From NCBI GenBank assembly GCA_016183175.1, contig JACPFC010000026.1:41907-105906 (forward strand): a stretch of 64,000 bases of DNA, in the 5' to 3' direction. Below, piece after piece: positions 10,038-23,498 of the stretch. A model generated the notes under the pieces. The model worked only from the letters and a program-made list of their open reading frames with translations. It made no database searches and was not told where the DNA came from. This DNA comes from Deltaproteobacteria bacterium. Its GTDB lineage: Bacteria; UBA10199; SBBF01. The position numbers were made by a program, and so were the translations under genes. Each line of letters begins with the position of its first letter. Position 1 is the first letter of the stretch.

Positions 10038-10793
10038 TTAATACCAGATCCTTCCCGCGCCCGAATCGATCCGGTTGTTGAGGGCGTTGATCTCCGGATG
10101 GGAGCGAAGATACGCGATAATCTTTTCTATGGAGACGGGCTTGTCGGGATTCAGCCGGAGATCTTCGTACACCCTGCGTAAAACGATCAGATCCTCGGGC
10201 CAGTCAACGGTCAGACGCACGTCCCCGCTTCGGACCTCCTCCGGGACACCCTGTTTTTTTATCTTGAACTGGTCGGGGTGTTCATGAATGTATGAAGTGC
10301 AAAACTCACTCCGGTGCCTCTTTTCCCCCAGCTCCCAGCTTTTCTTCAGGGCATCGTAACGGATAATTTCGTAGTAGGCCCCATCGGGGACTCCCAAAAT
10401 GACGGAATGGTCGAGGCCGTTGTCGCAATGATGCCGGTAGACCTCCTCAAGGTTATCGAGGTAGCAATACGGACTCTCCGTTGTCACACGGAACACCTGG
10501 TCGGCTTGCACCGATTCCGCGCCCCGTAACAGCCGGCCAAGGGCATCATGATCATCCCCGATGACAAAGGGAATCTCGTGGCGACGCGCGACTGTCCGAT
10601 AGACGGCATTTTCTTCCTTCTCGGAAATGGCCAGGACAATGCCTGAAAGGATGGGGATCTGCTTCAATTGACGGATCAGGAAATCGAGAATGGTCAGGCC
10701 CGTTTTGACATCCAGGGTTTGAAGCGGTTTCGCATACAGGCGAAGCGATTGATTGCGGCACGCCAGGACCGCCGCCATTTTTCCGGCTTTCAT
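10038..10793 (-). CDS. Acylneuraminate cytidylyltransferase family (CMP-nonulosonic acid synthetase, PseF/SpsF-like)
   Basis: 251 aa. N-terminal MAAVLACRNQSLRLYAKPL resembles the CTP_transf_3 P-loop-like segment. Confidence 0.65.
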   Translation of the reverse strand: MKAGKMAAVLACRNQSLRLYAKPLQTLDVKTGLTILDFLIRQLKQIPILSGIVLAISEKEENAVYRTVARRHEIPFVIGDDHDALGRLLRGAESVQADQVFRVTTESPYCYLDNLEEVYRHHCDNGLDHSVILGVPDGAYYEIIRYDALKKSWELGEKRHRSEFCTSYIHEHPDQFKIKKQGVPEEVRSGDVRLTVDWPEDLIVLRRVYEDLRLNPDKPVSIEKIIAYLRSHPEINALNNRIDSGAGRIWY

Positions 10794-11827
10794 GAAAATT
10801 CCTCCATGGCGGCCACTGCGCGGTCCGCCCCGGCGCCGTCCACAATCTCCCGGCCGCGTCGGGACATCGTTGTCCGCCGGGCGGGATCTTCCATCAAGCG
10901 GGAGACGGCCTCCGCGATTTGGGGGATGACGACCTCCTCATGCCGCCCCAGATGCAGGGCGCATCCCGAGGCGTGCAGGCTTGACGCAATAAACCTCTGG
11001 TTTGCCGCCGTGGAGATGAGAATGGCGGGCAGTCCCAAAAAACAGATCTCCCAACAGGTGCTCCCACCGGCGCTGACGGCCAGATCCGCCCATGTCATGA
11101 GCGTCGGCATATTACCGTTCGATCCGACCAATTCATTAGAACCGTTCAGGCCGGCGATCAGGCGCCGGAGAAGGCGTTCATTCGGATTCACATCACCCGC
11201 AACAATTTTCACGCGCCATCTTCCCTGATTCACGGTCGCTATCGCTTCGATGACCCTGGCGGCCTGGTTGTGACGATCTCCCGCACCCATCGTGATTAAA
11301 ATGTTCCGGTTTCGGGGCTTTGGGGGATGGACGGCGCGCCCCCGCCGGAGAAACTCTTCCCGCAACAACGCATAGCGACTGCCCAGGAGCAGAACGGCGC
11401 CCTGCTCCGTGTTGTACGTGAACAGGTTTTCGGCGTCATGGGTCTGATTCAGGACAATATCGGCCAATTGACGTCGGTCGGCCAGTTCATCGATGCAAAA
11501 GAGGAGCGAGCCGCCTTTCTTCAAAAGGCGTTGGTATTCGGTATCAAAAGAATAACCGTCCATCACGATCCACCGGCACGATTCCGCAACGGCCATCCGG
11601 CTTGTCGCCAAGGCATCCTCCCGTAGCGGCAGACCCGATTCAAGCCGCCTTACGGTCAATTTTTGCCGTTTGAGCCCGGCTACCAGACTGTCAGACAGGG
11701 CCTGTGACACAAAAAGGACATCATGGCCTTTCCTTCGTAGCGCCTGGGCGAGGGCCAGCGAGCGCATAAAATGACCGTAACCGGCAATCGGCCCGGCATC
11801 CACCCGCATGAGAACTTTAAACGACAT
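10790..11827 (-). CDS. pseG: UDP-2,4-diacetamido-2,4,6-trideoxy-beta-L-altropyranose hydrolase (PseG)
   Basis: 345 aa. N-terminus FKVLMRVDAGPIAGYGHFMRSLALAQAL matches the PseG (GT28-like nucleotidase) N-terminal signature. Confidence 0.8.
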   Translation of the reverse strand: MSFKVLMRVDAGPIAGYGHFMRSLALAQALRRKGHDVLFVSQALSDSLVAGLKRQKLTVRRLESGLPLREDALATSRMAVAESCRWIVMDGYSFDTEYQRLLKKGGSLLFCIDELADRRQLADIVLNQTHDAENLFTYNTEQGAVLLLGSRYALLREEFLRRGRAVHPPKPRNRNILITMGAGDRHNQAARVIEAIATVNQGRWRVKIVAGDVNPNERLLRRLIAGLNGSNELVGSNGNMPTLMTWADLAVSAGGSTCWEICFLGLPAILISTAANQRFIASSLHASGCALHLGRHEEVVIPQIAEAVSRLMEDPARRTTMSRRGREIVDGAGADRAVAAMEEFS

Positions 11828-11926
11828 TGTTCAGATGCTTACTTTGCAACTTCTTTGCGTTTTACAAAGAAGTCGGCGGACGGTTTGAAGTGCCATTCGG
11901 ATCATCTGGTTGGCGGCCCTGCCGCC

Positions 11927-13261
11927 TCAAGTCAATCGTTGGAAACCGGCCGCGGCCGGTGGACCCTTCAGGGACTCTTCAACCCGGTCGGATTGCAGGA
12001 GATCGGCCATTTCTTTAAAAACCTCATCGGCGGCCTTCAGGTATGAGGCGACCTGTTCCGCCTGGTGGGCATACATCGAGTAGAAGGCGGTGGAAGCAAG
12101 ATAACCTCTCTCCAGCATTCGCTGAACAAACAGGGCCTTGAGGGCAAGTTTCTTCGCATCCTGAAATTCAAGATGACCCATTGGCAGGATCCCTCCCACC
12201 TGGAGCGGCAACCGGCGCCTTTCGCCCAAAGTCCGCCAACCGGTTTGCACGGTTCCTCCGATCTCGGCCAAATGTTCCTGCACCCGGTAGCGGCGGTATT
12301 TTCGGATCATCGCTAGGGCCGCCGTGGGGCCGATCCGTTCGGTCCAGTAGGTGCTGCTGATGAAGGTATTCTGGGCCGCTTCCATGACTTCCGCCCGTCC
12401 AATGACCGCTCCGATCGGGTAGCCGTTCCCCAGGGCCTTGGAGAATACCGCCATGTCGGGGGTCACGCCCAGGACGAGGTGCGCCCCTCCGCACGCCAAC
12501 CGGAACCCGGATGAAATCTCGTCAAAGATGAGAACCGCCCCGACCTCGTCCGCTGTCGCCCGCACCTTCTCCAGAAAGCCGGGGAGGGGTTGGGTGTTGC
12601 GAATCGGCTCCATGACGATGGCGGCGATTTCCCGTTTATGTCGGGCCATGATCGTGTTTAATTCATCGGGACAATTATAGCGGAAGGGGAGGGCCGTCCC
12701 CTTCAAACCTTGCGGAACCCCCGCAGGTTTGAGGCCCGATAGAAGATGCTCCCCAAGGGCGTTTTCGGTCCCCAGGTTTGCCGCCAGATACCAATCGTGC
12801 CAACCATGATAACCGCAAAAGGCGATCTTGTCGCGGCCGGTATGGCATCGCGCAATGCGGACGGCGATCGCCATCGATTCTCCTCCGGTGCGCGCGAACC
12901 GCGCCATCTCCGCCCAGGGATGAAGTTCGCACAACAGTTCGGCCAACTCGACCTCTTCCGGGCCGTTGAGCGTGCAACTCGTTCCGGCCTCAAGGGTCTC
13001 TTTGACGGCGGCGTCGACATCCGGGTCGGCGTATCCGAGGACATTGGCGCCGATTCCGCCCAGACTCATGTCGATATAACGATTACCGTCCAGATCCCAG
13101 ACCTCGGCGCCCTTTGCGCGACTGAAGTACCCCGGCCACACTCCCGGCGCAAACTGATCGGGTCTCTTGGAGAGGAGCTGTGTCATGCCCGGAATTCTCC
13201 TCCGGGCCCGCTCCTGCATCCGGAGTCCTGCCGTAATCTTGCTTTTCAAGTCCGATGACAT
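11927..13261 (-). CDS. Class-III aminotransferase (glutamate-1-semialdehyde aminomutase-like)
   Basis: 444 aa with class-III PLP aminotransferase architecture (…FDEISSGFR…, HemL-like). Confidence 0.75.
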   Translation of the reverse strand: MSSDLKSKITAGLRMQERARRRIPGMTQLLSKRPDQFAPGVWPGYFSRAKGAEVWDLDGNRYIDMSLGGIGANVLGYADPDVDAAVKETLEAGTSCTLNGPEEVELAELLCELHPWAEMARFARTGGESMAIAVRIARCHTGRDKIAFCGYHGWHDWYLAANLGTENALGEHLLSGLKPAGVPQGLKGTALPFRYNCPDELNTIMARHKREIAAIVMEPIRNTQPLPGFLEKVRATADEVGAVLIFDEISSGFRLACGGAHLVLGVTPDMAVFSKALGNGYPIGAVIGRAEVMEAAQNTFISSTYWTERIGPTAALAMIRKYRRYRVQEHLAEIGGTVQTGWRTLGERRRLPLQVGGILPMGHLEFQDAKKLALKALFVQRMLERGYLASTAFYSMYAHQAEQVASYLKAADEVFKEMADLLQSDRVEESLKGPPAAAGFQRLT

Positions 13262-14445
13262 GAAGTCTTCAGCGCCGAATAAACTTCTTTATAGAGAAAC
13301 GCCTTTCTCACAAGGGGCTCCTCAAACATAAAGTCCGGTGAGAGCAGAAGTCCCCGCCGGAGGAATTCAAATCCATAATCTTTTTCAGGCAGACCGAAGT
13401 CGGTCCGCCATGACTTCGGCTCTTGTCCGTCTTTGATGAGGGCGGAAAGTATCCCGGGATCCAGCGGGGCGGATTCGGAATGATCCAGCGGTTCATATCC
13501 AAAGAACTCCATCTCAAACCCGCAAATAAAGTCGATCAACCGGACCTGGTCGTTTGGGAGGTGTTGGCGCCATCGGCCGATGCGATGCTCTTTAAAACCG
13601 TGGGCCACAGGCTCAAAACTGCTGTAACCATTGTAAGTCTCTCCCGTTGCGGGATCGACATACTTGTGGGTATCCAGCATATCCGGGTGAAAAGGGATCT
13701 CGAGAAAGCGGCACAGCTCTTTGCATTTTCCCTCCGGATCCCGGATGAGATCCTCATAGCGCAAAAGGACGAGCCGGTTTCGAAACACCGGAAGCGTTTG
13801 ATAGTAGAGGGCGCAGGCCATCTGTTTTCTGATGCACCGCGCGTAGGATGCAATATGCCCTCTCTCGGAAGAGTTCGAAACGTGCAGATTGGAAGCGATG
13901 ACGGCGCGCGGATCCCGGAGGATGATCAAAAACCGCCCCTCCGGGAAGGCGTTGGCGAGCGGCAAAAGAAATTCGACCGTCCAATTTTCGTGCAGTCCGA
14001 CCCATTGGGTTTTGGCGCCCTTTCGCGTCTTTTGAATGAGCCGCAAGCCGTTGAGAAAAAAATCGCGATAGGTGTCCCCGACAAGGGAATCCATCAGGGG
14101 GACAAGATCCCCCGAAGAGAGCCGCGCCCTCTGCCGGAGCAGGTCCAGCAGGGCGGGCCGCTCCTGGCGCTGAAACGGGACATCCAGGGGGGCATTCTGA
14201 ATGGCGTCCAGCACGTCAAGCTGTTCTTGGGAAAAATAGTAATCCGCGAAGGGCGCATCGGGGTTGTTGCAGGTTTGCCTCATTTTTTCCGAACCGTGAT
14301 GTCTGATAATGGCCGACCGGTAAGAACGGAAAAGGGGAAGAAAGGGATCCAGGGCGATATCCACCAGGGGACTGACGGACAACATACGGGTCACAAGACC
14401 CGTTCCCCCCCGCGCCGTTCCGGTTGAAAACAGGCAAGGAGTCAT
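13246..14445 (-). CDS. Sulfotransferase family protein
   Basis: 399 aa. N-terminal FSTGTARGGTGLVTRML is a PAPS-binding loop, paralogous to the partial gene at 1..295. Confidence 0.65.
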   Translation of the reverse strand: MTPCLFSTGTARGGTGLVTRMLSVSPLVDIALDPFLPLFRSYRSAIIRHHGSEKMRQTCNNPDAPFADYYFSQEQLDVLDAIQNAPLDVPFQRQERPALLDLLRQRARLSSGDLVPLMDSLVGDTYRDFFLNGLRLIQKTRKGAKTQWVGLHENWTVEFLLPLANAFPEGRFLIILRDPRAVIASNLHVSNSSERGHIASYARCIRKQMACALYYQTLPVFRNRLVLLRYEDLIRDPEGKCKELCRFLEIPFHPDMLDTHKYVDPATGETYNGYSSFEPVAHGFKEHRIGRWRQHLPNDQVRLIDFICGFEMEFFGYEPLDHSESAPLDPGILSALIKDGQEPKSWRTDFGLPEKDYGFEFLRRGLLLSPDFMFEEPLVRKAFLYKEVYSALKTSCHRT

Positions 14446-14450
14446 GGATT

Positions 14451-15170
14451 CTAGGTTTTCAGGTCCTCCGGCGTGTCAATTTCCCTCCATCCGCCGGAAA
14501 TCGGCACGGCCTTCACAGGCACGGAAAGATGGATGAGGTGCTGAATAAATGTCGTCATGTACATCTGATCGAATCGGGCGCCGTCATAGAGGCGATCACG
14601 GTCCATCCGGCGGTAAAGCGCGCGAATCCTATTCGTGATCGAGCGTCGGATTTTAAGAAGTCCTATATATTGCCCCTGGATTTCCTGATATGTCGCCGGC
14701 TTCTTCCCGATCTCCAAAATATACCCCTGTCGATTGAGCTTAAGCGTCTCGGCATCCTTGAGGGGGTCGAGCCCTCTTCTTGACCAGAGGGTTTTCCATT
14801 CCTTGTCGACAACAACGGCAAAGTCGGAAGGCTCGTCGATCAGCGTTTGAAGAATAGCAGGCTCGTAAACGATATCTGCATAAGAAATAATGACGTCATC
14901 ATCCATTTCCTGTTCCGCGCAGAATAACGTGGCGACCATGTTTGTTGCGGCATACCGCTCATTGAGGATGCTTTTTGCGCCGTCCGTTTTCAAGGCCTCC
15001 GCCTTATATCCCTTGACAACCGTAATATCGTCGATCCGGCAGTGTCGCAGGGTCTCCAAAATGCGGGTAATCATCGGCTTGCCGTTGTAGGCGACCATCG
15101 CCTTGGGGCGATCATCGGTCAGGGGACCGAGTCGCGACCCCCGACCCGCGGCAAGGATGATGGCCTTCAT
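14451..15170 (-). CDS. Sugar-phosphate nucleotidyltransferase (NTP_transferase; LicC/PtmE-like)
   Basis: 239 aa. N-terminal MKAIILAAGRGSRLGPLT is the nucleotidyltransferase G-rich loop. Confidence 0.75.
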   Translation of the reverse strand: MKAIILAAGRGSRLGPLTDDRPKAMVAYNGKPMITRILETLRHCRIDDITVVKGYKAEALKTDGAKSILNERYAATNMVATLFCAEQEMDDDVIISYADIVYEPAILQTLIDEPSDFAVVVDKEWKTLWSRRGLDPLKDAETLKLNRQGYILEIGKKPATYQEIQGQYIGLLKIRRSITNRIRALYRRMDRDRLYDGARFDQMYMTTFIQHLIHLSVPVKAVPISGGWREIDTPEDLKT

Positions 15171-15181
15171 CGATCAGGATT

Positions 15182-15778
15182 TCACCGGGTGTAAAATTCT
15201 CTCACGAACTCGATGTCCGGGGGCGCGAACGGGTGGATCCTTTCCGGGTGCCACATGAGTCCTTGAATGGGTCTCGTTTTATGCCGAACCGCCTTGACGA
15301 CTCCGTCAGGGGCCGCCGCCCATACATCCAAAACATCGGTTGTTTCAGTCGTCCCCATCCTGTGGTAGCTGGGAACTTCCCGCTCGGTTCCGTTCACGGT
15401 GATCTTGAGTGTTGGTGTTATGTGGCCCTCAACCTGGGTCAACCGGATTCCAAAGAAATGCTGGATCAGTTGCATTCCTCTGCAAATGCCGAGAAGCGGC
15501 AGATTCCTGTCCAACGCATGCTTGAGGAGAAACAGCTCGGTTTCGTCGCGCTCCGGGGCATCCCCCCCATAGTCAAGAAGGTTATTTCCACCCGTCAACA
15601 GGATTCCATGACAGGCGATCGATCGTACGAGCGACTCGGCCGATCTCACATGATTGGGAATGGGATAAGGAGTGAATCCGCATTGTAAAAGGAAGGCGAT
15701 CCATCGCTGATCCAGTTGATCGCGACGCTCCCTGTTCTCCGAGGTTCCCACGCGCTGGGTGACGCCGATGAACCTCAT
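15182..15778 (-). CDS. Class I glutamine amidotransferase (peptidase C26 / gamma-glutamyl hydrolase family)
   Basis: 198 aa with the GICRGMQL nucleophile elbow and a downstream WHPE histidine motif. Confidence 0.75.
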   Translation of the reverse strand: MRFIGVTQRVGTSENRERRDQLDQRWIAFLLQCGFTPYPIPNHVRSAESLVRSIACHGILLTGGNNLLDYGGDAPERDETELFLLKHALDRNLPLLGICRGMQLIQHFFGIRLTQVEGHITPTLKITVNGTEREVPSYHRMGTTETTDVLDVWAAAPDGVVKAVRHKTRPIQGLMWHPERIHPFAPPDIEFVREFYTR

Positions 15779-18132
15779 CGGATGACGGATACCCTCTTGT
15801 CGGAACAGTCGATATCAAGCATCTCGGCCTTTGCCCATCTTGAATAGAAAATTTCCCCGGCGCCGATCACCGCCGGAACGCCAAGTTCACCCGCCCGGAC
15901 AGCCATGTGGGAGTTGGCCCCGCCGTACATCGTAATCAACGCGGCGATGCGACGGGAGAAAACCCAGTCATAGCCCGGGTCCGCGCTCGGTATCATGAGA
16001 ATACTGCCGACGAGTTTTTGGCGGTTCTCATGGTGGACGTGGGCCACCGGGCCTCTGGCCTTTTGGAGGGTGATAAAATTCGGCGCGCTCTCGGGCAGGT
16101 GGAAATGCCATACATCCTCCGGTTTCGTAATCAGGGGGGGCAGGGACAGGCTTCTTGTGAGCGAATAATTTTCCTGTCCCGAGGCGATGCTTTTCTTCAA
16201 AACCGACGCGGCATCCGCGCTCGACGAATAAAGCTCCTTGATGCAGTTGATATCCGCGTAGGAGCATTGTTCAGGGCTGAATCCGTTTTCATTCCCCAGT
16301 TCCCTGAATAATTTGAGGATCTCGCTGACGTTGACGGTAAAGATAAATTTGGCATATTCCCTTGCCGCGACGGCCTTGCCGATGAAATCATAAAGCTCAT
16401 GGGCATCCAGTTGCAACGGGTGATGTTTCAGAAGTTTGCCGGTTTGCCGCAGTTGATCCGGAGACGGAATAAATCGGCGATTTTCCCGGCGGTTCTTTTT
16501 TGGGGAGGGGGCCCATGTGAAGTACTGATCGGGTTCCTCGTCGTACCGGGGGGACAGAATGTCGTAGGTCCCGGGCCTCAAGTGGCCGTATTTTTTTAAA
16601 AAGGTCTTGCGGCTTAAATATTGAAAGTCCTGATTCATCTGTGAGCCGATCGTATTCAAACTTCTTGTAAAGAGGTCATATTCGGACCGGTTAAGGATGC
16701 CGACACGCTGTAACGATTGAAGAAGTTGCACGGCAATGAATCCGGTGCGCGCCAAACCGGCGAAGGGAAGGGTTCCGTACCGCTTGCAATCTTCCAGGAG
16801 CCAGTAGATTTTCGAGACATTGTTCTGCGGGCTTTGCATGATGACGGAATGGCGCTTTTGAAGATCATTTATCTTCTCCAGGTCCTCATGCCATAGCCCG
16901 TCTTCGCCGTGAATAATTCTGTTGGTGAGCGCGCCAAGACTTTTTTCCAAACGGGCGCAATCCGGTTTGCTGAAGCCGTTTTTCCGGAGCTCTTCGGAAC
17001 GGGCGGTGAAATCAAAGGTGTAGCACGTATAAAGAATTTCAAATTCGACCTTGTCATGGTCGGTCGGAGACTCCAGAAGAGACTTGAGGTAGTAATTCAC
17101 CAAACGCTCCGAGAGCTCGGCGTCAATATCCGCGGGAACGAATGAGTTGAAGTCAACGCGGACGTCGATGTAAGGGAATCCGTGAAAACTGATCAATAAA
17201 GGGAAGCTTCGGAGGCTTTTATAGCCGTAGTTATCCCTCTGGTAGGCCCAAATGCTGTCCGTGATCAGTTCTTTATAGAGGGACAGGGTCAGGGGACGAG
17301 GCCGAACGCCGATCATCTCGGCCGGATTCCAGTCGGGCATGACGCCATAAATGGTTTTTGAGCCGTGGAGGTATGGGTGCGGTTGCATGGATTCTTTTAT
17401 CTTGCGGTAAATCATCCCCAGGGCCTTTTCGTGCCTTTCCGTCGAGATGTCGGGTTTGGGAACACCCACGAGAGGACGGGCCTGCAGGAGATAGAGATGA
17501 CCTTCGGCGCCGACGGCAAATTCGATATCAAGAGAATCCGTTTCCAGGAGAGATTCCAGCTCCCAAACCAGTTTGACGATCCTGCCCCATTGAGGAGAAG
17601 GCGCTTTTCTGTGCTTGTAACAGTAAAACATCTTCAGGTTGTTTGATCCGCCTGAAGTGACCGTGGATGTCCCCCGGCCGGCATCATCGTAATTAACGAC
17701 GATGTAGGGTCCGCCGGTATTCGGATCCCTGCTGAAGGCCACTCCGCTTAAGGCGACATCCTGCAACATCGGTTGAAGGAACACCTGGTCCCCGTCGTTC
17801 CCGATGCCGTAAGATTGAATGACCTTTGAGATTGCCTTGCGGACCGCCCTCTCTCCGCTCACATCCTTTACAGAAAGATGGCGGCCGGCCATGGATTCCT
17901 TGAAAGAATCCTCAACATACGCACTGCTTCGCACAATCAATGGAATCTCATCCAGCCACCCGGCCTCCCGAATCCGGTGGATCATTCGGGATGGCGATTC
18001 CTCCCATTCTTTCACCGTCATCCGGATTTGAGGGAGAACCCTTGCCGACTTTAGGACCGCCTCGAGGCGTTCCAGCGTTTCCGCCTTGGTTCCAAAGCGA
18101 ACCGTCATTGAAGTTTTTTTTGGACAGTCCAC
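15775..18132 (-). CDS. PEP-utilizing enzyme (pyruvate,water dikinase-like): N-terminal ATP/PEP-binding domain plus phosphohistidine mobile domain, no TIM-barrel
   Basis: 785 aa. The C-terminus YGGANSHMAVRAGELGVPAVIGAG is the PEP-utilizing phosphohistidine motif. The N-terminal ~350 aa resemble the PPDK_N nucleotide-binding domain. Confidence 0.7.
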   Translation of the reverse strand: MDCPKKTSMTVRFGTKAETLERLEAVLKSARVLPQIRMTVKEWEESPSRMIHRIREAGWLDEIPLIVRSSAYVEDSFKESMAGRHLSVKDVSGERAVRKAISKVIQSYGIGNDGDQVFLQPMLQDVALSGVAFSRDPNTGGPYIVVNYDDAGRGTSTVTSGGSNNLKMFYCYKHRKAPSPQWGRIVKLVWELESLLETDSLDIEFAVGAEGHLYLLQARPLVGVPKPDISTERHEKALGMIYRKIKESMQPHPYLHGSKTIYGVMPDWNPAEMIGVRPRPLTLSLYKELITDSIWAYQRDNYGYKSLRSFPLLISFHGFPYIDVRVDFNSFVPADIDAELSERLVNYYLKSLLESPTDHDKVEFEILYTCYTFDFTARSEELRKNGFSKPDCARLEKSLGALTNRIIHGEDGLWHEDLEKINDLQKRHSVIMQSPQNNVSKIYWLLEDCKRYGTLPFAGLARTGFIAVQLLQSLQRVGILNRSEYDLFTRSLNTIGSQMNQDFQYLSRKTFLKKYGHLRPGTYDILSPRYDEEPDQYFTWAPSPKKNRRENRRFIPSPDQLRQTGKLLKHHPLQLDAHELYDFIGKAVAAREYAKFIFTVNVSEILKLFRELGNENGFSPEQCSYADINCIKELYSSSADAASVLKKSIASGQENYSLTRSLSLPPLITKPEDVWHFHLPESAPNFITLQKARGPVAHVHHENRQKLVGSILMIPSADPGYDWVFSRRIAALITMYGGANSHMAVRAGELGVPAVIGAGEIFYSRWAKAEMLDIDCSDKRVSVIR

Positions 18133-18875
18133 GCGCGAGTCTTGTACGGCACAACAATGCGATCGAGGCCCGAAATTTCACTTTCAATCCGGTCGAGTAT
18201 TTCCTGAAATTTGAGTTCGCCGGCCTGCGCCTGCAGGTCATTCACCGACCTCCAAACGCCGAGGTATCTTTGCCGATCCATCGTTTCTTCGTGCGGGGCC
18301 TCCATAAAGATTGGATGATGAAAGTGGCCGGTGCCGATGAGCGTTTGTTCGAGGCCCCGGGTGTATTTTTCCGCACCGGAAGAAACCCTCTTCAAACCGG
18401 GCGCCATCGCACAGACAATTTCCTCGATCCGCTTCTGCAAGGGGCTTTTTTCCAGGTCACGCGGATTCCATAAGGCGCTAAAAAACCCTCCCGGTCTTAA
18501 AATGCGGTGAAACTCGGCGAGTGCGGCGATGGAATTCGTCCAGTGAAAAGACGAGGCCATCAAAATCCAGTCGACCGAGGCATCGGACAACCCCGTTTCC
18601 TCGGCGGTTCCTTTTGACCATTTGACCCGGGAGCGATCCCTGCAAAGACGCAACCCTTCTTCCCGCATCGCCTCATTGGGCTCGATGGCATAGCCGGAAA
18701 GACCAAGATCCATGAGGATCCCGGTCAACTTGCCGGTTCCCGCCCCGATATCGGCGACGAGGAACCCGTCACGGGCGGCGTCCATGTAAAGGGCAAGGGC
18801 CTTCAGGACCTGTTTGGAATAGCCGGGTCTGTGGAAATAGTGTTTGGCGAGTTCCGTATAATCACCCGGTTTCAT
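18105..18875 (-). CDS. Class I SAM-dependent methyltransferase
   Basis: 256 aa with the SAM-binding motif I VADIGAGTGKLT. Confidence 0.8.
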   Translation of the reverse strand: MKPGDYTELAKHYFHRPGYSKQVLKALALYMDAARDGFLVADIGAGTGKLTGILMDLGLSGYAIEPNEAMREEGLRLCRDRSRVKWSKGTAEETGLSDASVDWILMASSFHWTNSIAALAEFHRILRPGGFFSALWNPRDLEKSPLQKRIEEIVCAMAPGLKRVSSGAEKYTRGLEQTLIGTGHFHHPIFMEAPHEETMDRQRYLGVWRSVNDLQAQAGELKFQEILDRIESEISGLDRIVVPYKTRAWTVQKKLQ

Positions 18876-19432
18876 AATCGCCCGTCCTCAAAGGCCGAAA
18901 AAAGGAACCGCGCCAGGGAAGCGGGCGTTTGCGTCCCGTCGTTGTCGATGATGGCGTCGGGATTTTTTGGTTCTTCCGCCGGCAGGTCGATGCCCATCAC
19001 ATTTCTTATTTTTCCCCGCAAGGCCCTGCTGTAGAGCTTTTTTGCGTCTCTCTTGATGAGGACTTTCATGGGGGCCCGGACAAAGATTTCCCTGTAATTC
19101 CTGATATGGGCCCTGTTCCACGCATGCAATGCCCGAAACAGGGAAATGGTCGCGCAAACCACGTGAATTCCCTGATCCGAAAGGACCTTGCAGAGGCGCG
19201 CGTTTCTTGCCGCTATTTTTCTGCGGTGCGCGAGCGAATGGTCGAGAGGACTGTCGAAGACCCTCCGAAGGACATCGCCATCCAGGAAAACGGCATTTTG
19301 TCTGTTTTTCTTCAGGCGCCGGTAAAACAATTTTCCGATGGTCGTCTTGCCGGCCCCCGCCAAACCGGTGAACCAGAAAACGGTTCCATGTCGGCCGTTG
19401 ATTCGGGCCTCCTGTTTTAATGGGGAGGCCAT
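18872..19432 (-). CDS. cysC: Adenylyl-sulfate kinase (APS kinase)
   Basis: 186 aa. The Walker A segment VFWFTGLAGAGKTTIGK is diagnostic of APS kinase. Confidence 0.85.
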   Translation of the reverse strand: MASPLKQEARINGRHGTVFWFTGLAGAGKTTIGKLFYRRLKKNRQNAVFLDGDVLRRVFDSPLDHSLAHRRKIAARNARLCKVLSDQGIHVVCATISLFRALHAWNRAHIRNYREIFVRAPMKVLIKRDAKKLYSRALRGKIRNVMGIDLPAEEPKNPDAIIDNDGTQTPASLARFLFSAFEDGRL

Positions 19433-20346
19433 AGCGCGGGATTCAGGATCCGGTCGTCGACGGAACCGAAAACCATGTGGATCCGTTTTGGCAGGGAGGG
19501 GTCAACATCCCTTTTCCAACAGGAAATGTTTTGCTTCAGTTGGGACACGCTCTCCGCGCCGAAGACAACGGAAGCGCGAGGGGCCGCCGATTTGATATAG
19601 AGCAGGGCGAGTTCCGGGCGCTCCATCACCAGTTCACGGCAAACCGAATCGAGATTTTTCAAAATGGATTTTGCAAAGGCCATTTTCTCCGGCAACTCTT
19701 CCGGTTTCATGAGGAGGAGCCCCTGCAAAAAAATACTGCGGACATAGATGCCCTTCCCAAGCCTCTCCGCCAGGCCAAAAACTCCCTGGTCAAGAAAGCG
19801 GCGGTCGAAGAGGTTCATGGGAACCTGAACCAGATCGATCCCCTCTGTTTCAAGGGCTTGAAGGGCCCTCTCCGGCCGGTATACCGAGACCCCGATTTTC
19901 CGGACGACCTTTTCCTCCTTAAAACGAAGAAGGGTTTCTCCCAGGCCCCGGTTCCAGTGGTCGAGGAATTTCTCCCGGTGCAGGAGGATGCCGGAGAGTT
20001 GGGACAACCCGAGTCGTTCAAGGCTTTCGGAAAGGGCCTCTTTGAGGGCTTGTCCGTGAAGATGATTGAGTGAGGGATGAAATTTTGTAAAAACCCCAGC
20101 CTTTTGGGAAAGGCCCAGGGCTTTCAGGGCCTGCCCCAGAACCGTCTCGCTCGTTCCATAGTCCTGGGCCGTATCAAATTCCCGGATACCGTTCTCCCAG
20201 GCCTCTGCAACAATCTCCTCCGATTCCGACGGACCGGGTTGGCCCTTCCGGTTGGCGATTCCGTAAGGCATCCCGAGTTGCGCCGTGCCCAAAACAAGTC
20301 TCGTCGGACGGTCAGCCAACCCGCGAAATCCTTTCCGGCTGGACAA
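19417..20346 (-). CDS. Aldo/keto reductase family oxidoreductase
   Basis: 309 aa with an AKR TIM-barrel pattern (LVLGTAQLG...DTAQDYG...). Confidence 0.75.
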   Translation of the reverse strand: MSSRKGFRGLADRPTRLVLGTAQLGMPYGIANRKGQPGPSESEEIVAEAWENGIREFDTAQDYGTSETVLGQALKALGLSQKAGVFTKFHPSLNHLHGQALKEALSESLERLGLSQLSGILLHREKFLDHWNRGLGETLLRFKEEKVVRKIGVSVYRPERALQALETEGIDLVQVPMNLFDRRFLDQGVFGLAERLGKGIYVRSIFLQGLLLMKPEELPEKMAFAKSILKNLDSVCRELVMERPELALLYIKSAAPRASVVFGAESVSQLKQNISCWKRDVDPSLPKRIHMVFGSVDDRILNPALWPPH

Positions 20347-22525
20347 CCGATCGGATCGACTGAATCACCCTTTGAACGTCGCTGTCCAACATCGCGGGAA
20401 AGAGTGGAATCGAGAGGCACTGGTCGTAGTATTTTTCCGCATGGGGACAATCGCCCCGTTGGGTGCCGAACCGGTTCCTGAAGAGGGGCTGTGTATGGAC
20501 CGGGATGAAGTGGACCTGGGTTTTGACCCCCTTTTCTTCCAGTTGCGCCATCACGTCGGCCCGCGGCAGACCCCGTTTCTCGAAATCGATCAGGAGGACG
20601 TAAAGATGGAAGTTGTTTTGACAAAAGGCGGATTCGTAAGGCGTGATCGCCAGATCCAGTTTCTCAAAATGGGCGTTGTATTGGTCGACGATTTCACGCC
20701 TCCGCTTCATGAATCGGGGCAGTTTTCGGGCCTGGGAGATGCCGAGGGCGCACTGAATGTCCGTGATGCGGTAGTTGAAACCGAGTTCGACCTGTTCGTA
20801 ATACCAGGGAGGGATTGAGGCCTGAAAGTCGGACCTCAACTCCGGATTGACGAACTCGGCCGGATCGCTGGTCATGCCGTGGTTTCGCAATCGCTTGAGC
20901 CTCCGGTAGAGTTCCTCATCGTTGGTGAGAACGGCGCCTCCCTCGCCGGTGGTGATATGCTTGACGGGATGAAAACTCAAGACCGCCATATCCGAAAAGG
21001 AGCAGGAACCCACCTGCGTTCCCTTGTAGGTCGAGCCGAGGGCGTGGGCGGCGTCTTCAATGATGTATATTTTATGGCCAAACTTCTTCTCCGCCCGGTT
21101 TTTAATCCGTGTCATTGCCTCCATATCGCAACTCTGGCCGGCAAAATGCACGGGGATGACGGCCTTGACGCGCCCGGTTATTTTCATTTCCACGGTTTCC
21201 GGCGACAGATTATAGGTTCTCGGGTCGATATCGCCGAACACGGGTCTTGCCCCGCAATAGACAATGCAGTTTGCCGAGGCCACGAAGGTGTTGGGAGAGG
21301 TAATGACTTCGTCTCCGGGACCGATGTTGGCGGACAGACAGGCGATATGGAGGGCGGAGGTCCCCGAATTGACGGCCACCGCGAACTTTGAGCCGGTAAT
21401 CCGGCACAAGGCGTCCTCGAACTCGCCGACCTTTGGCCCCTGGGTCAAATAACTTGATTTCAGGACCGCGATGACGGAGCGGATATCGTCGTCGTCGATG
21501 CTTTGCCTCCCGTAAGGAGACATGGAACGCCTTGCGCTGTCGTCCGCGTAGGGTTTCCTCTTGATGATTTTTGGGAAGCCGCTTTTGTAATCCCCGTAAA
21601 ACTTCTCGATCGAATCATCGATGGTCGGCAGGGCGCAATCGAGCGCCTCTGCCAGCTTGCCGACGTTGAGGGTGAGGTCGGTTCCCCTCTTGGCGTCGAA
21701 GTTGAACTCTTCGATCGGCGTCGGCTCGACAAGAGACCGGTCCAGTCGAAACCGGTCGGCGAGCCTCACGGCGAATTCGTACTTCGAAATGCCGATGGGA
21801 CTCCCGCAATTGTAGATGCCGAGCAGGTCTTTCCGCGCCGCCAGTTCCAATACCCATGCCAGTTCCAGCGTGTAGATGGAAGAAAAGCGGGCATTGACAA
21901 AACCCTTGATCACTTGTCCCTCCTTAAGCCGATGGATAATCCATTCGGCGAGGCCTTCTTTTTCCTGAATGTTCCATCCAAAGATGTTTGTCCGGAAAAC
22001 GAGCGTATGGGGATGTTTAAGCGCTTCAAGCTCTCCTTCGTATTTGCTTTTCCCATAATAATTCGGAGGGCTGGGGGGGTCGGTCTCCGAGTAATCTCCC
22101 CTTTGACCGTCGTAAACGAGGTCGGTTGATATGTAGATGAGTTTTGCGTCGCAATCCTCAAGACTTTCGACAACGGCCTGCGTGCCCAGGATGTTCGTCT
22201 TTTTTGCAAGCTCCCGGTTCCTTTCGCACAAGTCGACATCCGCCAAAGAGGCGCAGTGAATGACGACATCGGGCTTAAAGCCCTTGACAACGGGCTTAAG
22301 GGAGTCCTGCGACAGGAGATCGACCCGTTGCGTTTCAACCCCGTCAATGGAAACGGGATGGGAACAATACAATCCGAGCAGGTCGAATTTCCCGCGAAAT
22401 GCGTGGGCGAGATTGCTCCCAAGCATGCCGCTTACGCCCGTAATGAGGATTTTTTCCCTATTGGGGAACGGCCTCGAGGCCCCAACGCGATTTTTCGATG
22501 GAATAGTCATCGGCGGTTTTTTCAA
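20312..22525 (-). CDS. Fusion: N-terminal RmlD-like NAD(P)-dependent sugar reductase/epimerase plus C-terminal DegT/DnrJ/EryC1/StrS aminotransferase (PseC-like)
   Basis: 737 aa. The N-terminus ILITGVSGMLG is a Rossmann fold (dTDP-4-dehydrorhamnose reductase-like). The C-terminal half has SGTSALHIA and SFHPVKHITTGEGG (PLP lysine) of sugar aminotransferases. Confidence 0.8.
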   Translation of the reverse strand: MKKPPMTIPSKNRVGASRPFPNREKILITGVSGMLGSNLAHAFRGKFDLLGLYCSHPVSIDGVETQRVDLLSQDSLKPVVKGFKPDVVIHCASLADVDLCERNRELAKKTNILGTQAVVESLEDCDAKLIYISTDLVYDGQRGDYSETDPPSPPNYYGKSKYEGELEALKHPHTLVFRTNIFGWNIQEKEGLAEWIIHRLKEGQVIKGFVNARFSSIYTLELAWVLELAARKDLLGIYNCGSPIGISKYEFAVRLADRFRLDRSLVEPTPIEEFNFDAKRGTDLTLNVGKLAEALDCALPTIDDSIEKFYGDYKSGFPKIIKRKPYADDSARRSMSPYGRQSIDDDDIRSVIAVLKSSYLTQGPKVGEFEDALCRITGSKFAVAVNSGTSALHIACLSANIGPGDEVITSPNTFVASANCIVYCGARPVFGDIDPRTYNLSPETVEMKITGRVKAVIPVHFAGQSCDMEAMTRIKNRAEKKFGHKIYIIEDAAHALGSTYKGTQVGSCSFSDMAVLSFHPVKHITTGEGGAVLTNDEELYRRLKRLRNHGMTSDPAEFVNPELRSDFQASIPPWYYEQVELGFNYRITDIQCALGISQARKLPRFMKRRREIVDQYNAHFEKLDLAITPYESAFCQNNFHLYVLLIDFEKRGLPRADVMAQLEEKGVKTQVHFIPVHTQPLFRNRFGTQRGDCPHAEKYYDQCLSIPLFPAMLDSDVQRVIQSIRSVVQPERISRVG

Positions 22526-23498
22526 TCAGGTCCCGGAGTTGTTCAACCGTGAGCCAGTCTTTGTTCTGATCGGAGGTGTATTTGAAATCGTTCCTGCAAA
22601 GTCCCGCATTTCCGTTGCCGGCCGACAATAATTCCTCCAGAGACCGCGGATGGCTTTGAATAATGAAATGTTCCCTGAATTCCACGGTATGACGGGCCTC
22701 TTCCCCGCTGATCAGCGTTTCGTGAAGCTTTTCGCCGGGACGAACCCCGATGATGTCAAATCGGCATTCAGGGTCGATCGCTCTCGCCAGATCGACAATT
22801 TTCATGGAGGGAATCTGGGGCACGAAGACCTCGCCTCCCCGGACGATCTTGAGCGCCATGAGGACGAAATGGACCGCCTGGTCGAGGGTGATCCAGAAAC
22901 GGGTCATGCGGGGATCGGTGATCGGTATAACGCCGGCCTTTGCCTTCTCTTTGAAGAAAGGGACCACGGAGCCCCTGCTCCCGAGAACATTTCCGTAGCG
23001 GACCACGGCGAACCGGACATTCTGGAATCCGCCATAGGCCTTGGCCGCGCAGAACAGTTTGTCGGCGCAAAGTTTGGTGGCCCCATAGAGATTGAGGGGA
23101 TTGCAGGCCTTGTCCGTCGAGAGGGCAATGACCCGCGACACGTTATTGTAAATGGCCGCTTCAATCACGTTCATGGCGCCGATGACGTTTGTCTTGATGC
23201 ATTCTGCGGGGTTGTATTCCGCGGCCGGGACCTGCTTCAAGGCGGCGGCATGGATGACGTAGTCAACCTGACGGAAGGCGAGCATCAGCCGGTCCTTGTC
23301 GCGCACATCCCCGAGAAAGTAGCGGATGCAGGGATATTTTTCGGCATCCCATCGCTGGGACATTTCGAACTGTTTGAGTTCATCCCGGCTGAAGACGATC
23401 AATTTGTTGGGCGCGTAGTTTTCCAGGATTATCTGCACCATCTTCTTGCCGAAAGAACCGGTGCCGCCCGTGATGAGGATGTTTTTGTTGTTGAGCAT
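22458..23498 (-). CDS. pseB: UDP-N-acetylglucosamine 4,6-dehydratase (inverting), PseB/FlaA1
   Basis: 346 aa. N-terminus NILITGGTGSFGK and overall PseB/CapD short form. Confidence 0.85.
   Translation of the reverse strand: MLNNKNILITGGTGSFGKKMVQIILENYAPNKLIVFSRDELKQFEMSQRWDAEKYPCIRYFLGDVRDKDRLMLAFRQVDYVIHAAALKQVPAAEYNPAECIKTNVIGAMNVIEAAIYNNVSRVIALSTDKACNPLNLYGATKLCADKLFCAAKAYGGFQNVRFAVVRYGNVLGSRGSVVPFFKEKAKAGVIPITDPRMTRFWITLDQAVHFVLMALKIVRGGEVFVPQIPSMKIVDLARAIDPECRFDIIGVRPGEKLHETLISGEEARHTVEFREHFIIQSHPRSLEELLSAGNGNAGLCRNDFKYTSDQNKDWLTVEQLRDLIEKTADDYSIEKSRWGLEAVPQ

What the first reader, a model, noticed from the sequence alone, without database searches (positions are those of the whole stretch)
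14451..18875. Sub-module: PEP-synthase-like enzyme lacking the TIM-barrel domain, with GATase-1, nucleotidyltransferase and methyltransferase
The 785-aa protein has the PPDK_N ATP-grasp-like domain and the phosphohistidine 'mobile' domain (GGANSHMAVRAGELGVPAV) but no PEP/pyruvate-binding barrel. That architecture is used by antibiotic and sugar phosphotransferases. Together with a C26 glutamine amidotransferase, an NTP-transferase and a methyltransferase it could install a phospho-, amido- or methyl-decoration on the nonulosonic acid or another sugar. It is not part of canonical Pse/Leg pathways.
Basis: partly seen in the sequence, partly recalled or inferred. Interest (0 to 1): 0.6.

Follow-up and report, generated by a model that had tools for sequence, protein, structure and literature searches.

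The report
Methyl-phosphoramidate sugar-decoration gene cassette
These genes are not a crippled PEP synthase but a copy, in an uncultured deltaproteobacterium, of the known Campylobacter pathway that turns glutamine, ATP and CTP into an activated phosphoramidate for decorating surface sugars; here it sits beside a sulfotransferase-like enzyme that may do the transfer.

Summary
On the minus strand, 14451-18875 holds four tightly coupled genes. They encode a LicC-type nucleotidyltransferase, a C26/class-I GATase, and a 777/785-aa protein with an ATP-grasp domain, a helical domain and a phosphohistidine domain but no TIM barrel. The fourth gene encodes a SAM methyltransferase.

- L-glutamine kinase
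- CTP:phosphoglutamine cytidylyltransferase (45% identical to Cj1416)
- gamma-glutamyl-CDP-amidate hydrolase
- CDP-amidate 3'-kinase
- methyltransferase

The same cassette lies next to the kinase homologue in at least 81 species from many phyla.

The new lead is the adjacent gene at 13246-14445, a tyrosylprotein-sulfotransferase-fold protein. Its closest relatives sit in similar nonulosonic-acid loci. There they lie next to either an ATP-sulfurylase/APS-kinase (PAPS) cassette or this glutamine-kinase cassette. No locus I examined had both. It is therefore a candidate phosphoramidate transferase that uses the PAPS-like donor. That step is inferred, not shown.

Verdict: a new member of a known pathway, of moderate interest.

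The parts
18872..19432 (-). APS-kinase-fold kinase, Cj1415-like. Predicted to be a cytidine diphosphoramidate 3'-kinase.
   Evidence: Pfam APS_kinase, E 2e-33. The best NCBIfam model is PRK05541 at 185 bits (cut-off 127); the score against the true APS-kinase equivalog TIGR00455 is 126, below its cut-off of 138.7. It is 51-55% identical to kinases in glutamine-kinase cassettes of three other phyla, but 29-35% identical to kinases that sit next to ATP sulfurylase. A homologue lies within 6 kb of the glutamine-kinase homologue in 80 of 84 loci and is often fused to it.
18105..18875 (-). SAM-dependent methyltransferase specific to the cassette. Predicted to O-methylate the phosphoramidate.
   Evidence: Pfam Methyltransf_11/25/12. 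It is 37-55% identical to the methyltransferase at the same position in cassettes of other phyla, and shows no meaningful similarity (E>0.002) to the methyltransferases of sulfurylase-linked loci. It is present in 68 of 84 loci. Its stop overlaps the next start as ATGA.
15775..18132 (-). L-glutamine kinase homologue (Cj1418-like). It has an ATP-grasp domain, a helical substrate domain and a phosphohistidine swivel domain. The probable start is ATG 18108 and the catalytic histidine is H742 (785-aa numbering).
   Evidence: Pfam PPDK_N plus PEP-utilizers. NCBIfam NF004508 at 940 bits over the full length. It is 54-57% identical over 99% of its length to proteins that IMG names 'glutamine kinase'. 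H742 is invariant and aligns with the phosphohistidine of PEP synthase and rifampin phosphotransferase. The predicted fold is closest to rifampin phosphotransferase and has no barrel.
15182..15778 (-). Class-I GATase-fold hydrolase (Cj1417-like). Predicted to be a gamma-glutamyl-CDP-amidate hydrolase.
   Evidence: Pfam Peptidase_C26/GATase. The best NCBIfam model is NF045546, 'gamma-glutamyl-CDP-amidate hydrolase', at 109 bits over the full length; the next family scores 45 bits, and the equivalog cut-off of 250 is not reached. The triad is present as GICRGMQ (C99) and MWHPE (H177, E179). [quoted passage not shown]
14451..15170 (-). LicC/PntC-type cytidylyltransferase (Cj1416-like). Predicted to be a CTP:phosphoglutamine cytidylyltransferase.
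   Evidence: Pfam NTP_transf_3. The best PDB sequence match is LicC, 1jyk. It is 45% identical over its full length (188 bits, E 3e-64) to the Cj1416 sequence read from Suppl. Fig. 15 of PMC6697681. The match includes the VVDKxW..PLxDAETLK insertion that LicC and PntC lack.
13246..14445 (-). Tyrosylprotein-sulfotransferase-fold protein. Candidate phosphoramidate transferase (inferred); the rival reading is an ordinary PAPS sulfotransferase.
   Evidence: Pfam Sulfotransfer_3, E 6e-18, and Sulfotransfer_1, E 9e-15. The AlphaFold model has pLDDT 90.9, and all top PDB fold matches are PAP(S) sulfotransferases, with TPST1/2 best. The 5'-PSB motif (GTARGGTG) and 3'-PB motif (LRDPRAVIAS) are conserved. 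It lies 5 nt downstream of the cytidylyltransferase gene. The contexts of its relatives are given.

Best explanation
The sub-module is a homologue of the Campylobacter jejuni Cj1415-Cj1420 cassette, which makes the activated donor for (O-methyl) phosphoramidate decoration of surface glycans. The window comes from a metagenome-assembled Deltaproteobacterium.

The steps below are taken from the C. jejuni enzymology and assigned here by homology and synteny:
1. [quoted passage not shown]
2. The LicC-type nucleotidyltransferase condenses phosphoglutamine with CTP to give CDP-L-glutamine.
3. The GATase-fold protein (C99/H177/E179) hydrolyses off glutamate and leaves cytidine diphosphoramidate.
4. 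The APS-kinase-fold protein phosphorylates the 3'-OH to give 3'-phospho-CDP-amidate, a PAPS look-alike.
5. The cassette methyltransferase supplies the O-methyl group. The timing of this step is unknown.

One further step is inferred only. The adjacent sulfotransferase-fold protein would transfer the phosphoramidate to a hydroxyl of the pseudaminic-acid-type polysaccharide encoded by the same operon, releasing cytidine 3',5'-bisphosphate.
For: Homology, gene by gene:
- The nucleotidyltransferase is 45% identical over its full length to Cj1416.
- The GATase scores best against NCBIfam NF045546, gamma-glutamyl-CDP-amidate hydrolase. Its 50-56% identical homologues carry that enzyme name in IMG.
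- The large protein scores 940 bits over the full length against NF004508 and is 54-57% identical to proteins named glutamine kinase.
- The kinase is of the PRK05541 type. All glutamine-kinase-linked kinases tested share that type, whereas one sulfurylase-linked kinase (L089) scores best against TIGR00455 and another (L091) is intermediate.

Synteny:
- In 84 loci (81 distinct; 80 of them from a scan that confirmed at least 566 matches in species-representative genomes), homologues lie within 6 kb of the glutamine-kinase homologue as follows: kinase 80, nucleotidyltransferase 79, GATase 77, methyltransferase 68. Kinase-glutamine kinase fusions are frequent.
- ATGA start/stop overlaps couple the window genes.

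Pathway chemistry: Cj1415-Cj1418 make CDP-phosphoramidate 3'-phosphate from glutamine, ATP and CTP, and this is the likely donor (PMC11800397; PMC6429109).

For the transfer step:
- Sulfotransferase-fold genes adjoin the cassette in 20 of 54 complete loci, and they come from clades only ~20% identical to each other.
- In the window's own clade, relatives sit beside either ATP-sulfurylase/APS-kinase or this cassette, never both, in the nine relatives with informative context.
- The cassette-linked members are monophyletic in 170 of 200 bootstraps.
- No ATP sulfurylase is found in the 64-kb window or in any of the 81 cassette loci.
- CysQ-like 3'-nucleotidase genes accompany both cassette types.
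Against: - No C. jejuni Cj1415, Cj1417, Cj1418, Cj1419 or Cj1420 sequence could be obtained, so four of the five assignments rest on curated models, third-party names and synteny.
- The GATase is below the NF045546 equivalog cut-off (109 against 250 bits).
- Cj1419 and Cj1420 have no assigned function even in C. jejuni (PMC11800397), so the methylation step is a guess.
- The acceptor sugar is unknown.

Against the transfer step specifically:
- Sulfurylase-linked relatives are as much as 47% identical to the window protein and share every donor-binding motif, so no donor-specific change is visible.
- The C. jejuni MeOPN transferases Cj1421 and Cj1422 are ~600-aa proteins whose fold I could not establish.
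- 13 of 54 complete loci have no candidate transferase nearby.
- Six complete loci carry a TagF-like gene instead.
Confidence: 0.82

Rival explanations
1. The cassette does make the phosphoramidate donor, but the adjacent sulfotransferase-fold protein is an ordinary PAPS-dependent sulfotransferase that sulfates the same nonulosonic-acid glycan. PAPS would come from genes elsewhere in the genome, and the phosphoramidate would be transferred by an unidentified enzyme outside the window.
For: Five relatives 38-47% identical to the window protein sit directly next to ATP-sulfurylase, with an APS-kinase gene also present in three of those loci; one relative is fused to an APS-kinase domain. All PAPS-binding motifs are invariant across both groups. 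The fold is TPST-like. The glycan locus runs off the left end of the window, so other transferases may exist. A deltaproteobacterium may have abundant APS.
Against: No ATP sulfurylase is found in the 64-kb window or in any of the 81 cassette loci. The only kinase in the operon is of the cassette type. The sulfurylase and glutamine-kinase cassettes were never found together, and the cassette-linked members form their own clade. In L092 the sulfotransferase gene lies inside the cassette, between the glutamine kinase and the kinase. Pfam scans of the remaining large window ORFs found no other candidate phosphotransferase.
Confidence: 0.3
2. One reading: the barrel-less PEP-synthase-like enzyme directly phosphorylates a sugar, sugar nucleotide or nonulosonic acid, as rifampin phosphotransferase does its substrate. 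The GATase would act as an ammonia-donating amidotransferase and the nucleotidyltransferase would activate a sugar phosphate.
For: The overall architecture and best structural match are rifampin phosphotransferase. The middle substrate-binding domain has no characterised structure. Weak sub-threshold NCBIfam hits of the nucleotidyltransferase go to sugar-1-phosphate nucleotidyltransferases.
Against: The five genes match the Cj1415-1418 (+ methyltransferase) set one for one. The nucleotidyltransferase is 45% identical over its full length to Cj1416 and shares its specific insertion. The GATase's best family is the CDP-amidate hydrolase. The cassette keeps its composition in loci with quite different sugar genes (flagellin islands, capsule loci), which argues against a sugar-specific kinase.
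Confidence: 0.05
3. The kinase and sulfotransferase-fold protein form a PAPS-type sulfation pair, drawing APS from a dissimilatory or assimilatory sulfurylase encoded elsewhere. They would be unrelated to the other four genes, which would stop at CDP-amidate or make a different product.
For: The kinase has the APS-kinase fold, and its best PDB matches are all APS kinases. NCBI names the PRK05541 family 'adenylyl-sulfate kinase'.
Against: The kinase is below the TIGR00455 cut-off. It groups with kinases that are fused to, or embedded in, glutamine-kinase cassettes in organisms from many phyla. In the window it is separated from the sulfotransferase gene by the four other cassette genes.
Confidence: 0.08

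Closest known systems
Campylobacter jejuni MeOPN biosynthesis genes Cj1415-Cj1420 (Raushel and Szymanski laboratories)
   Same: The same five enzyme types are present: glutamine kinase, phosphoglutamine cytidylyltransferase, gamma-glutamyl-CDP-amidate hydrolase, APS-kinase-fold 3'-kinase and SAM methyltransferase. They are clustered inside a surface-polysaccharide locus. Identity to Cj1416 is 45%.
   Different: By my recollection of the C. jejuni gene order, the kinase is first here rather than last, and there is one methyltransferase rather than two. The host is an uncultured deltaproteobacterium. The cassette is embedded in a pseudaminic-acid-type nonulosonic-acid operon with Wzz/Wza-like export genes. 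No ~600-aa protein of the size of Cj1421/Cj1422 lies in the operon; a 399-aa sulfotransferase-fold gene is adjacent instead.
Rifampin phosphotransferase (RPH; PDB 5hv1, 5fbs)
   Same: The three-domain order is the same: ATP-grasp, helical substrate domain and C-terminal phosphohistidine swivel domain, with no TIM barrel. RPH is the best full-length fold match (E 4e-17).
   Different: Sequence identity is only 14-17% and TM-score ~0.3, because the domain orientations and the middle domain differ. The substrate is predicted to be glutamine, not an ansamycin.
PEP synthase / pyruvate phosphate dikinase
   Same: The ATP-grasp nucleotide domain and the GG.N/T.H phosphohistidine motif are homologous, and H742 aligns with the catalytic histidine.
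   Different: The PEP/pyruvate-binding TIM barrel is absent and the domain order is different.
PAPS pathway plus sulfotransferase (ATP sulfurylase, APS kinase, TPST/NodH-type sulfotransferase, CysQ)
   Same: The donor logic is the same: a nucleoside 5'-diphospho-X carrying a 3'-phosphate made by an APS-kinase-fold enzyme. A sulfotransferase-fold protein with intact 5'-PSB and 3'-PB motifs is present. A CysQ-like phosphatase is found in some loci.
   Different: ATP sulfurylase is replaced by the three enzymes glutamine kinase, cytidylyltransferase and hydrolase. The nucleotide is cytidine, and the group transferred would be phosphoramidate rather than sulfate. Transfer by the sulfotransferase-fold protein is not demonstrated.
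LicC / PntC cytidylyltransferases (phosphocholine, 2-aminoethylphosphonate)
   Same: They belong to the same PF12804 fold and share the GxG(T/S)Rx8PK motif. LicC (1jyk) is the best PDB sequence match.
   Different: The window protein shares with Cj1416 a ~35-residue insertion that LicC and PntC lack. The PDB match covers only residues 1-103.

Membership tests
L-glutamine kinase (Cj1418, EC 2.7.3.13) | Three-domain architecture without a barrel: ATP-grasp, substrate domain and phosphohistidine swivel domain | tested here: met
   Pfam domains at residues 45-107 and 709-777. The AlphaFold model has a helical middle domain. The fold is RPH-like.
L-glutamine kinase (Cj1418, EC 2.7.3.13) | Catalytic histidine in the swivel domain | tested here: met
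   H742 is invariant in 12 homologues and aligns with the phosphohistidine of PEP synthase 2ols and RPH 5fbs.
L-glutamine kinase (Cj1418, EC 2.7.3.13) | Sequence membership relative to Cj1418 itself | tested here: inconclusive
   The Cj1418 sequence could not be retrieved (the papers are not held). Indirect evidence: NF004508 scores 940 bits against a cut-off of 501, and the protein is 54-57% identical to proteins IMG names glutamine kinase.
L-glutamine kinase (Cj1418, EC 2.7.3.13) | ATP + L-Gln -> AMP + Pi + N5-phospho-L-glutamine | not testable with these tools
   This needs an enzyme assay.
CTP:phosphoglutamine cytidylyltransferase (Cj1416) | Full-length homology to Cj1416, including its family-specific insertion | tested here: met
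   45% identity, 188 bits, residues 1-239 against 1-249 of the OCR-derived Cj1416 sequence. The OCR errors can only lower the score.
gamma-glutamyl-CDP-amidate hydrolase (Cj1417, NCBIfam NF045546) | Score above the curated equivalog cut-off | tested here: not met
   109 bits against a cut-off of 250. It is nevertheless the best-scoring family by more than 60 bits and covers the full length. The protein is a distant orthologue candidate, not a certified equivalog.
gamma-glutamyl-CDP-amidate hydrolase (Cj1417, NCBIfam NF045546) | Cys-His-Glu triad of class-I GATases | tested here: met
   C99 in GICRGMQ, and H177 and E179 in MWHPE.
Cytidine diphosphoramidate kinase (Cj1415) | APS-kinase fold, distinct from true APS kinases, and embedded in the cassette | tested here: met
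   PRK05541 scores 185 bits while TIGR00455 scores 126, below its cut-off of 138.7. The same pattern holds in other cassette kinases and the opposite in the sulfurylase-linked L089 kinase. Identity is 51-55% to cassette kinases against 29-35% to sulfurylase-linked ones. No direct comparison with Cj1415 was possible.
Cj1419/Cj1420 methyltransferases | Homology to the C. jejuni proteins | not tested
   No sequence was available. Only co-conservation with the cassette is shown.
PAPS-dependent sulfotransferases (Pfam Sulfotransfer_3/_1; TPST-like) | Fold with the 5'-PSB and 3'-PB donor-binding motifs | tested here: met
   Pfam E 6e-18 and 9e-15. TPST1/2 are the best matches by sequence and by fold. 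GTARGGTG and LRDPRAVIAS are conserved.
PAPS-dependent sulfotransferases (Pfam Sulfotransfer_3/_1; TPST-like) | Use of PAPS as donor | not testable with these tools
   Genomic context argues for a different donor in this subclade, but the motifs do not discriminate.
PEP synthase / PPDK | C-terminal or central PEP/pyruvate-binding TIM barrel (PEP-utilizers_C) | tested here: not met
   There is no Pfam hit. The ORF ends at 15775. The model has no beta/alpha barrel.

The most novel reading that the evidence does not exclude
A tyrosylprotein-sulfotransferase-fold enzyme lineage that normally sulfates nonulosonic-acid glycans has switched donor, from PAPS to the look-alike 3'-phospho-CDP-(methyl)phosphoramidate. 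On this reading the PAPS-synthesis cassette and the glutamine-kinase cassette are interchangeable plug-ins beside one transferase scaffold. That would identify a phosphoramidate transferase family outside Campylobacter, and it would explain why the MeOPN donor carries a 3'-phosphate.
Probability: 0.45. Interest if true: 0.7.

Novelty: new member of a known kind. Interest (0 to 1): 0.45.

Why it matters
Reviews still describe phosphoramidate (P-N) glycan decoration as a Campylobacter peculiarity. [quoted passage not shown]

Here the complete cassette is found in an uncultured deltaproteobacterium. The kinase homologue was confirmed at 566 or more sites in species-representative genomes. These include Acidobacteriota, Planctomycetota, Nitrospinota, Elusimicrobiota, Pseudomonas, Paenibacillus and clostridia, and the cassette often lies beside flagellin or capsule genes. 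P-N glycan chemistry is therefore probably widespread in the environment.

In C. jejuni the transfer step is assigned only genetically (Cj1421/Cj1422), and I could find no account of its mechanism. The alternation between sulfurylase and glutamine-kinase cassettes next to orthologous sulfotransferase-fold genes gives a concrete, cheaply testable candidate for that step. It also gives a rationale for the PAPS-like 3'-phosphate on the donor.

Tried and rejected
1. Fetching the C. jejuni locus from the genome collection with the RT-PCR primer CS-1246 from PMC3907429 gave no match.

2. The primary Raushel papers (PMC5629633, PMC5938751, PMC5938747, PMC6643271, PMC6643276) are not held. The pathway statements therefore come from later open papers.

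3. No PDB entry for Cj1415-Cj1418 was found by sequence.

4. Primer hunts in PMC5759256, PMC3546167 and PMC10100756 gave nothing usable.

5. A metagenome scan with the sulfotransferase protein gave one 2.4-kb contig that was uninformative.

6. A ~400-aa family without a Pfam match lies next to the cassette in 24 loci and has sulfotransferase-like motifs (GLFGTGRxY, YRHPLDSLLTNW, LRLEDF..DP). Profile comparison gave only 2% probability and no PDB hit, so it is not counted as sulfotransferase-fold.

7. I could not settle whether Cj1421/Cj1422 are TagF-like or sulfotransferase-like. PMC8949473 concerns a different gene, and literature searches linking phosphoramidate transfer with sulfotransferases found nothing.

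8. The promoter and terminator scan of 6000-24500 was no better than shuffled sequence.

9. The ordinary PEP synthase reading was rejected because there is no barrel. A separate-operon reading was rejected because of the 4-16-nt overlaps and the 5-11-nt gaps.

Full report
**What is there.**
The window carries a long minus-strand operon from about 23498 down to 6771. In order of transcription, Pfam assigns the genes as follows:
- PseB-type 4,6-dehydratase (22458-23498)
- a fusion of an RmlD-like domain with a DegT aminotransferase (20312-22525)
- aldo-keto reductase (19417-20346)
- APS-kinase-fold protein (18872-19432)
- SAM methyltransferase (18105-18875)
- the 785-aa PPDK_N + PEP-utilizers protein (15775-18132)
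- Peptidase_C26/GATase (15182-15778)
- NTP_transf_3 (14451-15170)
- Sulfotransfer_3/_1 protein (13246-14445)
- class-III aminotransferase
- PseG-like GT28
- CTP_transf_3
- formyltransferase
- NeuB/PseI
- DUF4910

Divergently transcribed Wzz-like and SLBB (Wza-like) genes follow. The locus is therefore a surface-polysaccharide locus built around a pseudaminic-acid-type nonulosonic acid. Database protein P0001 (100% identical, 777 aa) assigns the sequence to a metagenome-assembled Deltaproteobacterium.

**Checking the observation.**
The large protein has an N-terminal ATP-grasp hit and a C-terminal phosphohistidine-domain hit, and it contains the quoted motif. It has no PEP-utilizers_C barrel. 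Its stop overlaps the next start as ATGA.

An AlphaFold model (pLDDT 78, pTM 0.74) shows an alpha/beta ATP-grasp domain, an all-helical middle domain and the swivel domain. Foldseek against the PDB returns rifampin phosphotransferases as the only full-length matches (E 4e-17 to 8e-10). D-Ala-D-Ala ligases follow, matching the ATP-grasp part only. PPDK matches only through its nucleotide domain.

The probable start is ATG 18108, which forms an ATGA overlap with the methyltransferase stop and gives 777 aa.

**What it is.**
The set PEP-utiliser-like kinase, GATase, nucleotidyltransferase, APS-kinase-like protein and methyltransferase is the gene set for O-methyl phosphoramidate (MeOPN) in the C. 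jejuni capsule. [quoted passage not shown] Cj1421 and Cj1422 are needed for transfer, and Cj1419 and Cj1420 remain unassigned (PMC11800397). The first step is N-phosphorylation of the glutamine amide by glutamine kinase, EC 2.7.3.13 (PMC6429109).

Tool evidence for each gene:
- **Nucleotidyltransferase.** The Cj1416 sequence printed in Suppl. Fig. 15 of PMC6697681 is OCR text with a few errors. It aligns with the window protein over the full length at 45% identity and 188 bits. The alignment includes a VVDKxW...PLxDAETLK insertion that LicC and PntC lack.
- **GATase.** Its best NCBIfam model is NF045546, 'gamma-glutamyl-CDP-amidate hydrolase', at 109 bits over the full length, against 45 bits for the next family. 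This is below the 250-bit equivalog cut-off. The Cys-His-Glu triad is intact. [quoted passage not shown]
- **Large protein.** It scores 940 bits over the full length against NF004508. It is 54-57% identical over 99% of its length to proteins IMG names glutamine kinase. H742 is invariant and aligns with the catalytic histidine of PEP synthase and rifampin phosphotransferase.
- **Kinase.** It scores 185 bits against PRK05541 but only 126 bits against the true APS-kinase equivalog TIGR00455, whose cut-off is 138.7.

**Comparative genomics.**
Four more loci came from contig look-ups.

Among these 84 loci (81 distinct), homologues of the window proteins lie within 6 kb of the glutamine-kinase gene as follows:

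| Homologue | Loci out of 84 |
|---|---|
| kinase | 80 |
| nucleotidyltransferase | 79 |
| GATase | 77 |
| methyltransferase | 68 |

Most of the misses are contig ends. In many Acidobacteriota loci the kinase is fused to the N-terminus of the glutamine kinase, giving ORFs of about 975 aa. Several database proteins also carry PF01583 together with PF01326 and PF00391.

Clostridium homopropionicum, Nitrospina and an Elusimicrobiota genome have exactly the window's gene order: kinase, methyltransferase, glutamine kinase, GATase, nucleotidyltransferase.

The window kinase is 51-55% identical to these cassette kinases, but only 29-35% identical to kinases that sit next to ATP sulfurylase. The NCBIfam pattern separates the two groups in the same way, although one sulfurylase-linked kinase (L091) is intermediate. 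The window methyltransferase is 37-55% identical to cassette methyltransferases of other phyla and unrelated to methyltransferases in sulfurylase-linked loci.

I conclude with high confidence that 14451-19432 is a MeOPN-type donor cassette.

**The neighbouring sulfotransferase-fold gene.**
The gene at 13246-14445 starts 5 nt after the cytidylyltransferase gene. It has strong Sulfotransfer_3/_1 hits and TPST1/2 as best PDB sequence matches. Its AlphaFold model (pLDDT 90.9, pTM 0.92) has only PAP(S)-dependent sulfotransferases among its top 50 fold matches. The 5'-phosphosulfate-binding motif (GTARGGTG) and the 3'-phosphate-binding motif (LRDPRAVIAS) are conserved.

The cassette product is a 3'-phosphorylated nucleoside 5'-diphospho-X, like PAPS. 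That makes this protein an obvious candidate for the transfer step.

Support from other loci:
- An iterated profile finds sulfotransferase-fold genes within 4 kb of the cassette in 25 of 81 loci, and in 20 of 54 loci with complete flanks.
- These genes come from clades only about 20% identical to the window protein.
- They sometimes lie between cassette genes (L092) or immediately upstream of the kinase (L004; L084).

**A complication that became the most interesting result.**
The contexts of the window protein's own relatives fall into two groups.

| Relative | Identity to window protein | Neighbouring donor genes |
|---|---|---|
| P0124 | 53-54% | cassette; GATase fragment and a 64%-identical nucleotidyltransferase upstream |
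| P0126 | 50-51% | cassette |
| P0139 | 46-47% | cassette |
| P0130 | 47% | ATP-sulfurylase, pyruvate-kinase-like domain, APS kinase |
| P0131 | 46-47% | pyruvate-kinase-like gene; the upstream ORF is cut by the contig end |
| P0148 | 43-44% | ATP-sulfurylase; the protein is itself an APS-kinase fusion |
| P0147 | 41-42% | ATP-sulfurylase, pyruvate-kinase-like domain; no separate APS-kinase gene was called |
| P0153 | 38-39% | ATP-sulfurylase, pyruvate-kinase-like domain, APS kinase |

Identity ranges reflect the two alignments used. All of these relatives sit in otherwise similar loci with NeuB, formyltransferase, DUF4910 and PFTS_polysacc genes. No locus has both cassettes. None of the 81 cassette loci, nor the 64-kb window, contains an ATP-sulfurylase homologue.

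In a neighbour-joining tree the four cassette-linked proteins are monophyletic in 170 of 200 bootstraps, nested within the sulfurylase-linked ones.

CysQ-like Inositol_P genes accompany both types: L091 and L093 on the sulfurylase side, and P0126's contig, L004 and 6 further cassette loci on the other. That fits a 3',5'-bisphosphonucleotide by-product in both cases.

The simplest reading is that a lineage of glycan sulfotransferases swapped its donor-synthesis cassette and, with it, its donor.

The counter-arguments are real:
- The donor-binding motifs are identical in both groups.
- I could not establish the fold of the C. jejuni transferases Cj1421 and Cj1422.
- In Pseudomonas and Chitinibacter loci a TagF-like gene, not a sulfotransferase-fold gene, adjoins the cassette.
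- 13 of 54 complete loci show no candidate transferase.

I put this step at roughly even odds.

**Mechanism.**
Steps 1-4 are assigned by homology to characterised enzymes. Steps 5 and 6 are inferred.
1. Glutamine kinase: ATP loads H742, and phosphoryl transfer to the amide N of L-Gln follows.
2. CTP plus phosphoglutamine gives CDP-L-glutamine.
3. C99/H177/E179 hydrolysis gives cytidine diphosphoramidate plus Glu.
4. 3'-phosphorylation.
5. O-methylation by the cassette methyltransferase, either before or after transfer. C. jejuni shows both methylated and unmethylated forms (PMC9561416).
6. Transfer to a hydroxyl of the Pse-type glycan, probably by the sulfotransferase-fold protein.

**Novelty and score.**
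The pathway is known and is already propagated in IMG/KEGG-style annotation. A preprint has noted it in Borg elements. The finding as posed is therefore a new member of a known kind. Two things raise it above routine: the breadth of distribution, which contradicts 'Campylobacter-only' statements in reviews, and the sulfurylase/glutamine-kinase cassette alternation beside one sulfotransferase clade. No paper found in the held library links phosphoramidate transfer with sulfotransferases. Interest: 0.45.

Noticed in passing
window 2808-3878, 3878-5893, 8179-9252 (all minus strand): Three NeuB-family genes lie in one locus. One of them is fused to a CTP_transf_3 cytidylyltransferase domain (671 aa). 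This suggests more than one nonulosonic acid, or a duplicated pathway.
   Followed up: no
window 20312-22525 (-): A 737-aa fusion joins an RmlD-like reductase/epimerase domain with a DegT/PseC-type aminotransferase, just downstream of PseB.
   Followed up: no
L086 5950-8004, L087 5762-8059, L089 5210-7408; L091 8553-10004; L093 690-2141: In the sulfurylase-linked relatives, a pyruvate-kinase-like domain is fused to, or lies adjacent to, the ATP sulfurylase (PK + PUA_2 + ATP-sulfurylase). This is an unusual architecture with no obvious role.
   Followed up: no
e.g. L073 9419-12337; database proteins P0054, P0056, P0057, P0070, P0097, P0110: The APS-kinase-fold domain is fused to the N-terminus of the glutamine kinase (about 850-975 aa). 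This is common in Acidobacteriota and is a Rosetta-stone link between the first and fourth pathway steps.
   Followed up: partly
L011, L024, L037, L041, L076 (Pseudomonas); L001 (Clostridium homopropionicum): The cassette lies directly beside FlgK and flagellin genes. This suggests phosphoramidate-modified flagellin glycans in cultured, tractable bacteria.
   Followed up: partly
L011 17084-18157; L041 16633-17697; 8 loci in all: Where no sulfotransferase-fold gene is present, a TagF-like CDP-glycerol glycerophosphotransferase-family gene adjoins the cassette. This is an alternative candidate phosphoramidate transferase.
   Followed up: partly
e.g. L073 14563-15771 (-); 24 loci: A conserved ~400-aa family with no Pfam or PDB match lies next to the cassette, mostly in Acidobacteriota-type loci. 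It has P-loop-like GLFGTGRxY and RHPLDSLL motifs reminiscent of sulfotransferases, but the resemblance is statistically unsupported.
   Followed up: partly
L063 7191-9986 (Paenibacillus algorifonticola); L069 7277-9996: An AMP-binding (adenylate-forming) domain is fused to, or lies adjacent to, the cassette-linked Sulfotransfer_3 domain.
   Followed up: no
L004 12928-13701; L056, L060, L066, L021, L023, L028; P0126 contig: CysQ-like Inositol_P phosphatase genes lie inside or beside the cassette. This fits recycling of a 3',5'-bisphosphonucleotide by-product.
   Followed up: partly
window 6771-8174 (-); L086-L093: DUF4910/DUF2172 (M28-aminopeptidase-like, with a winged-helix tail) genes recur in these nonulosonic-acid loci, often in two copies flanking the sulfotransferase gene. 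Their function is unknown.
   Followed up: no
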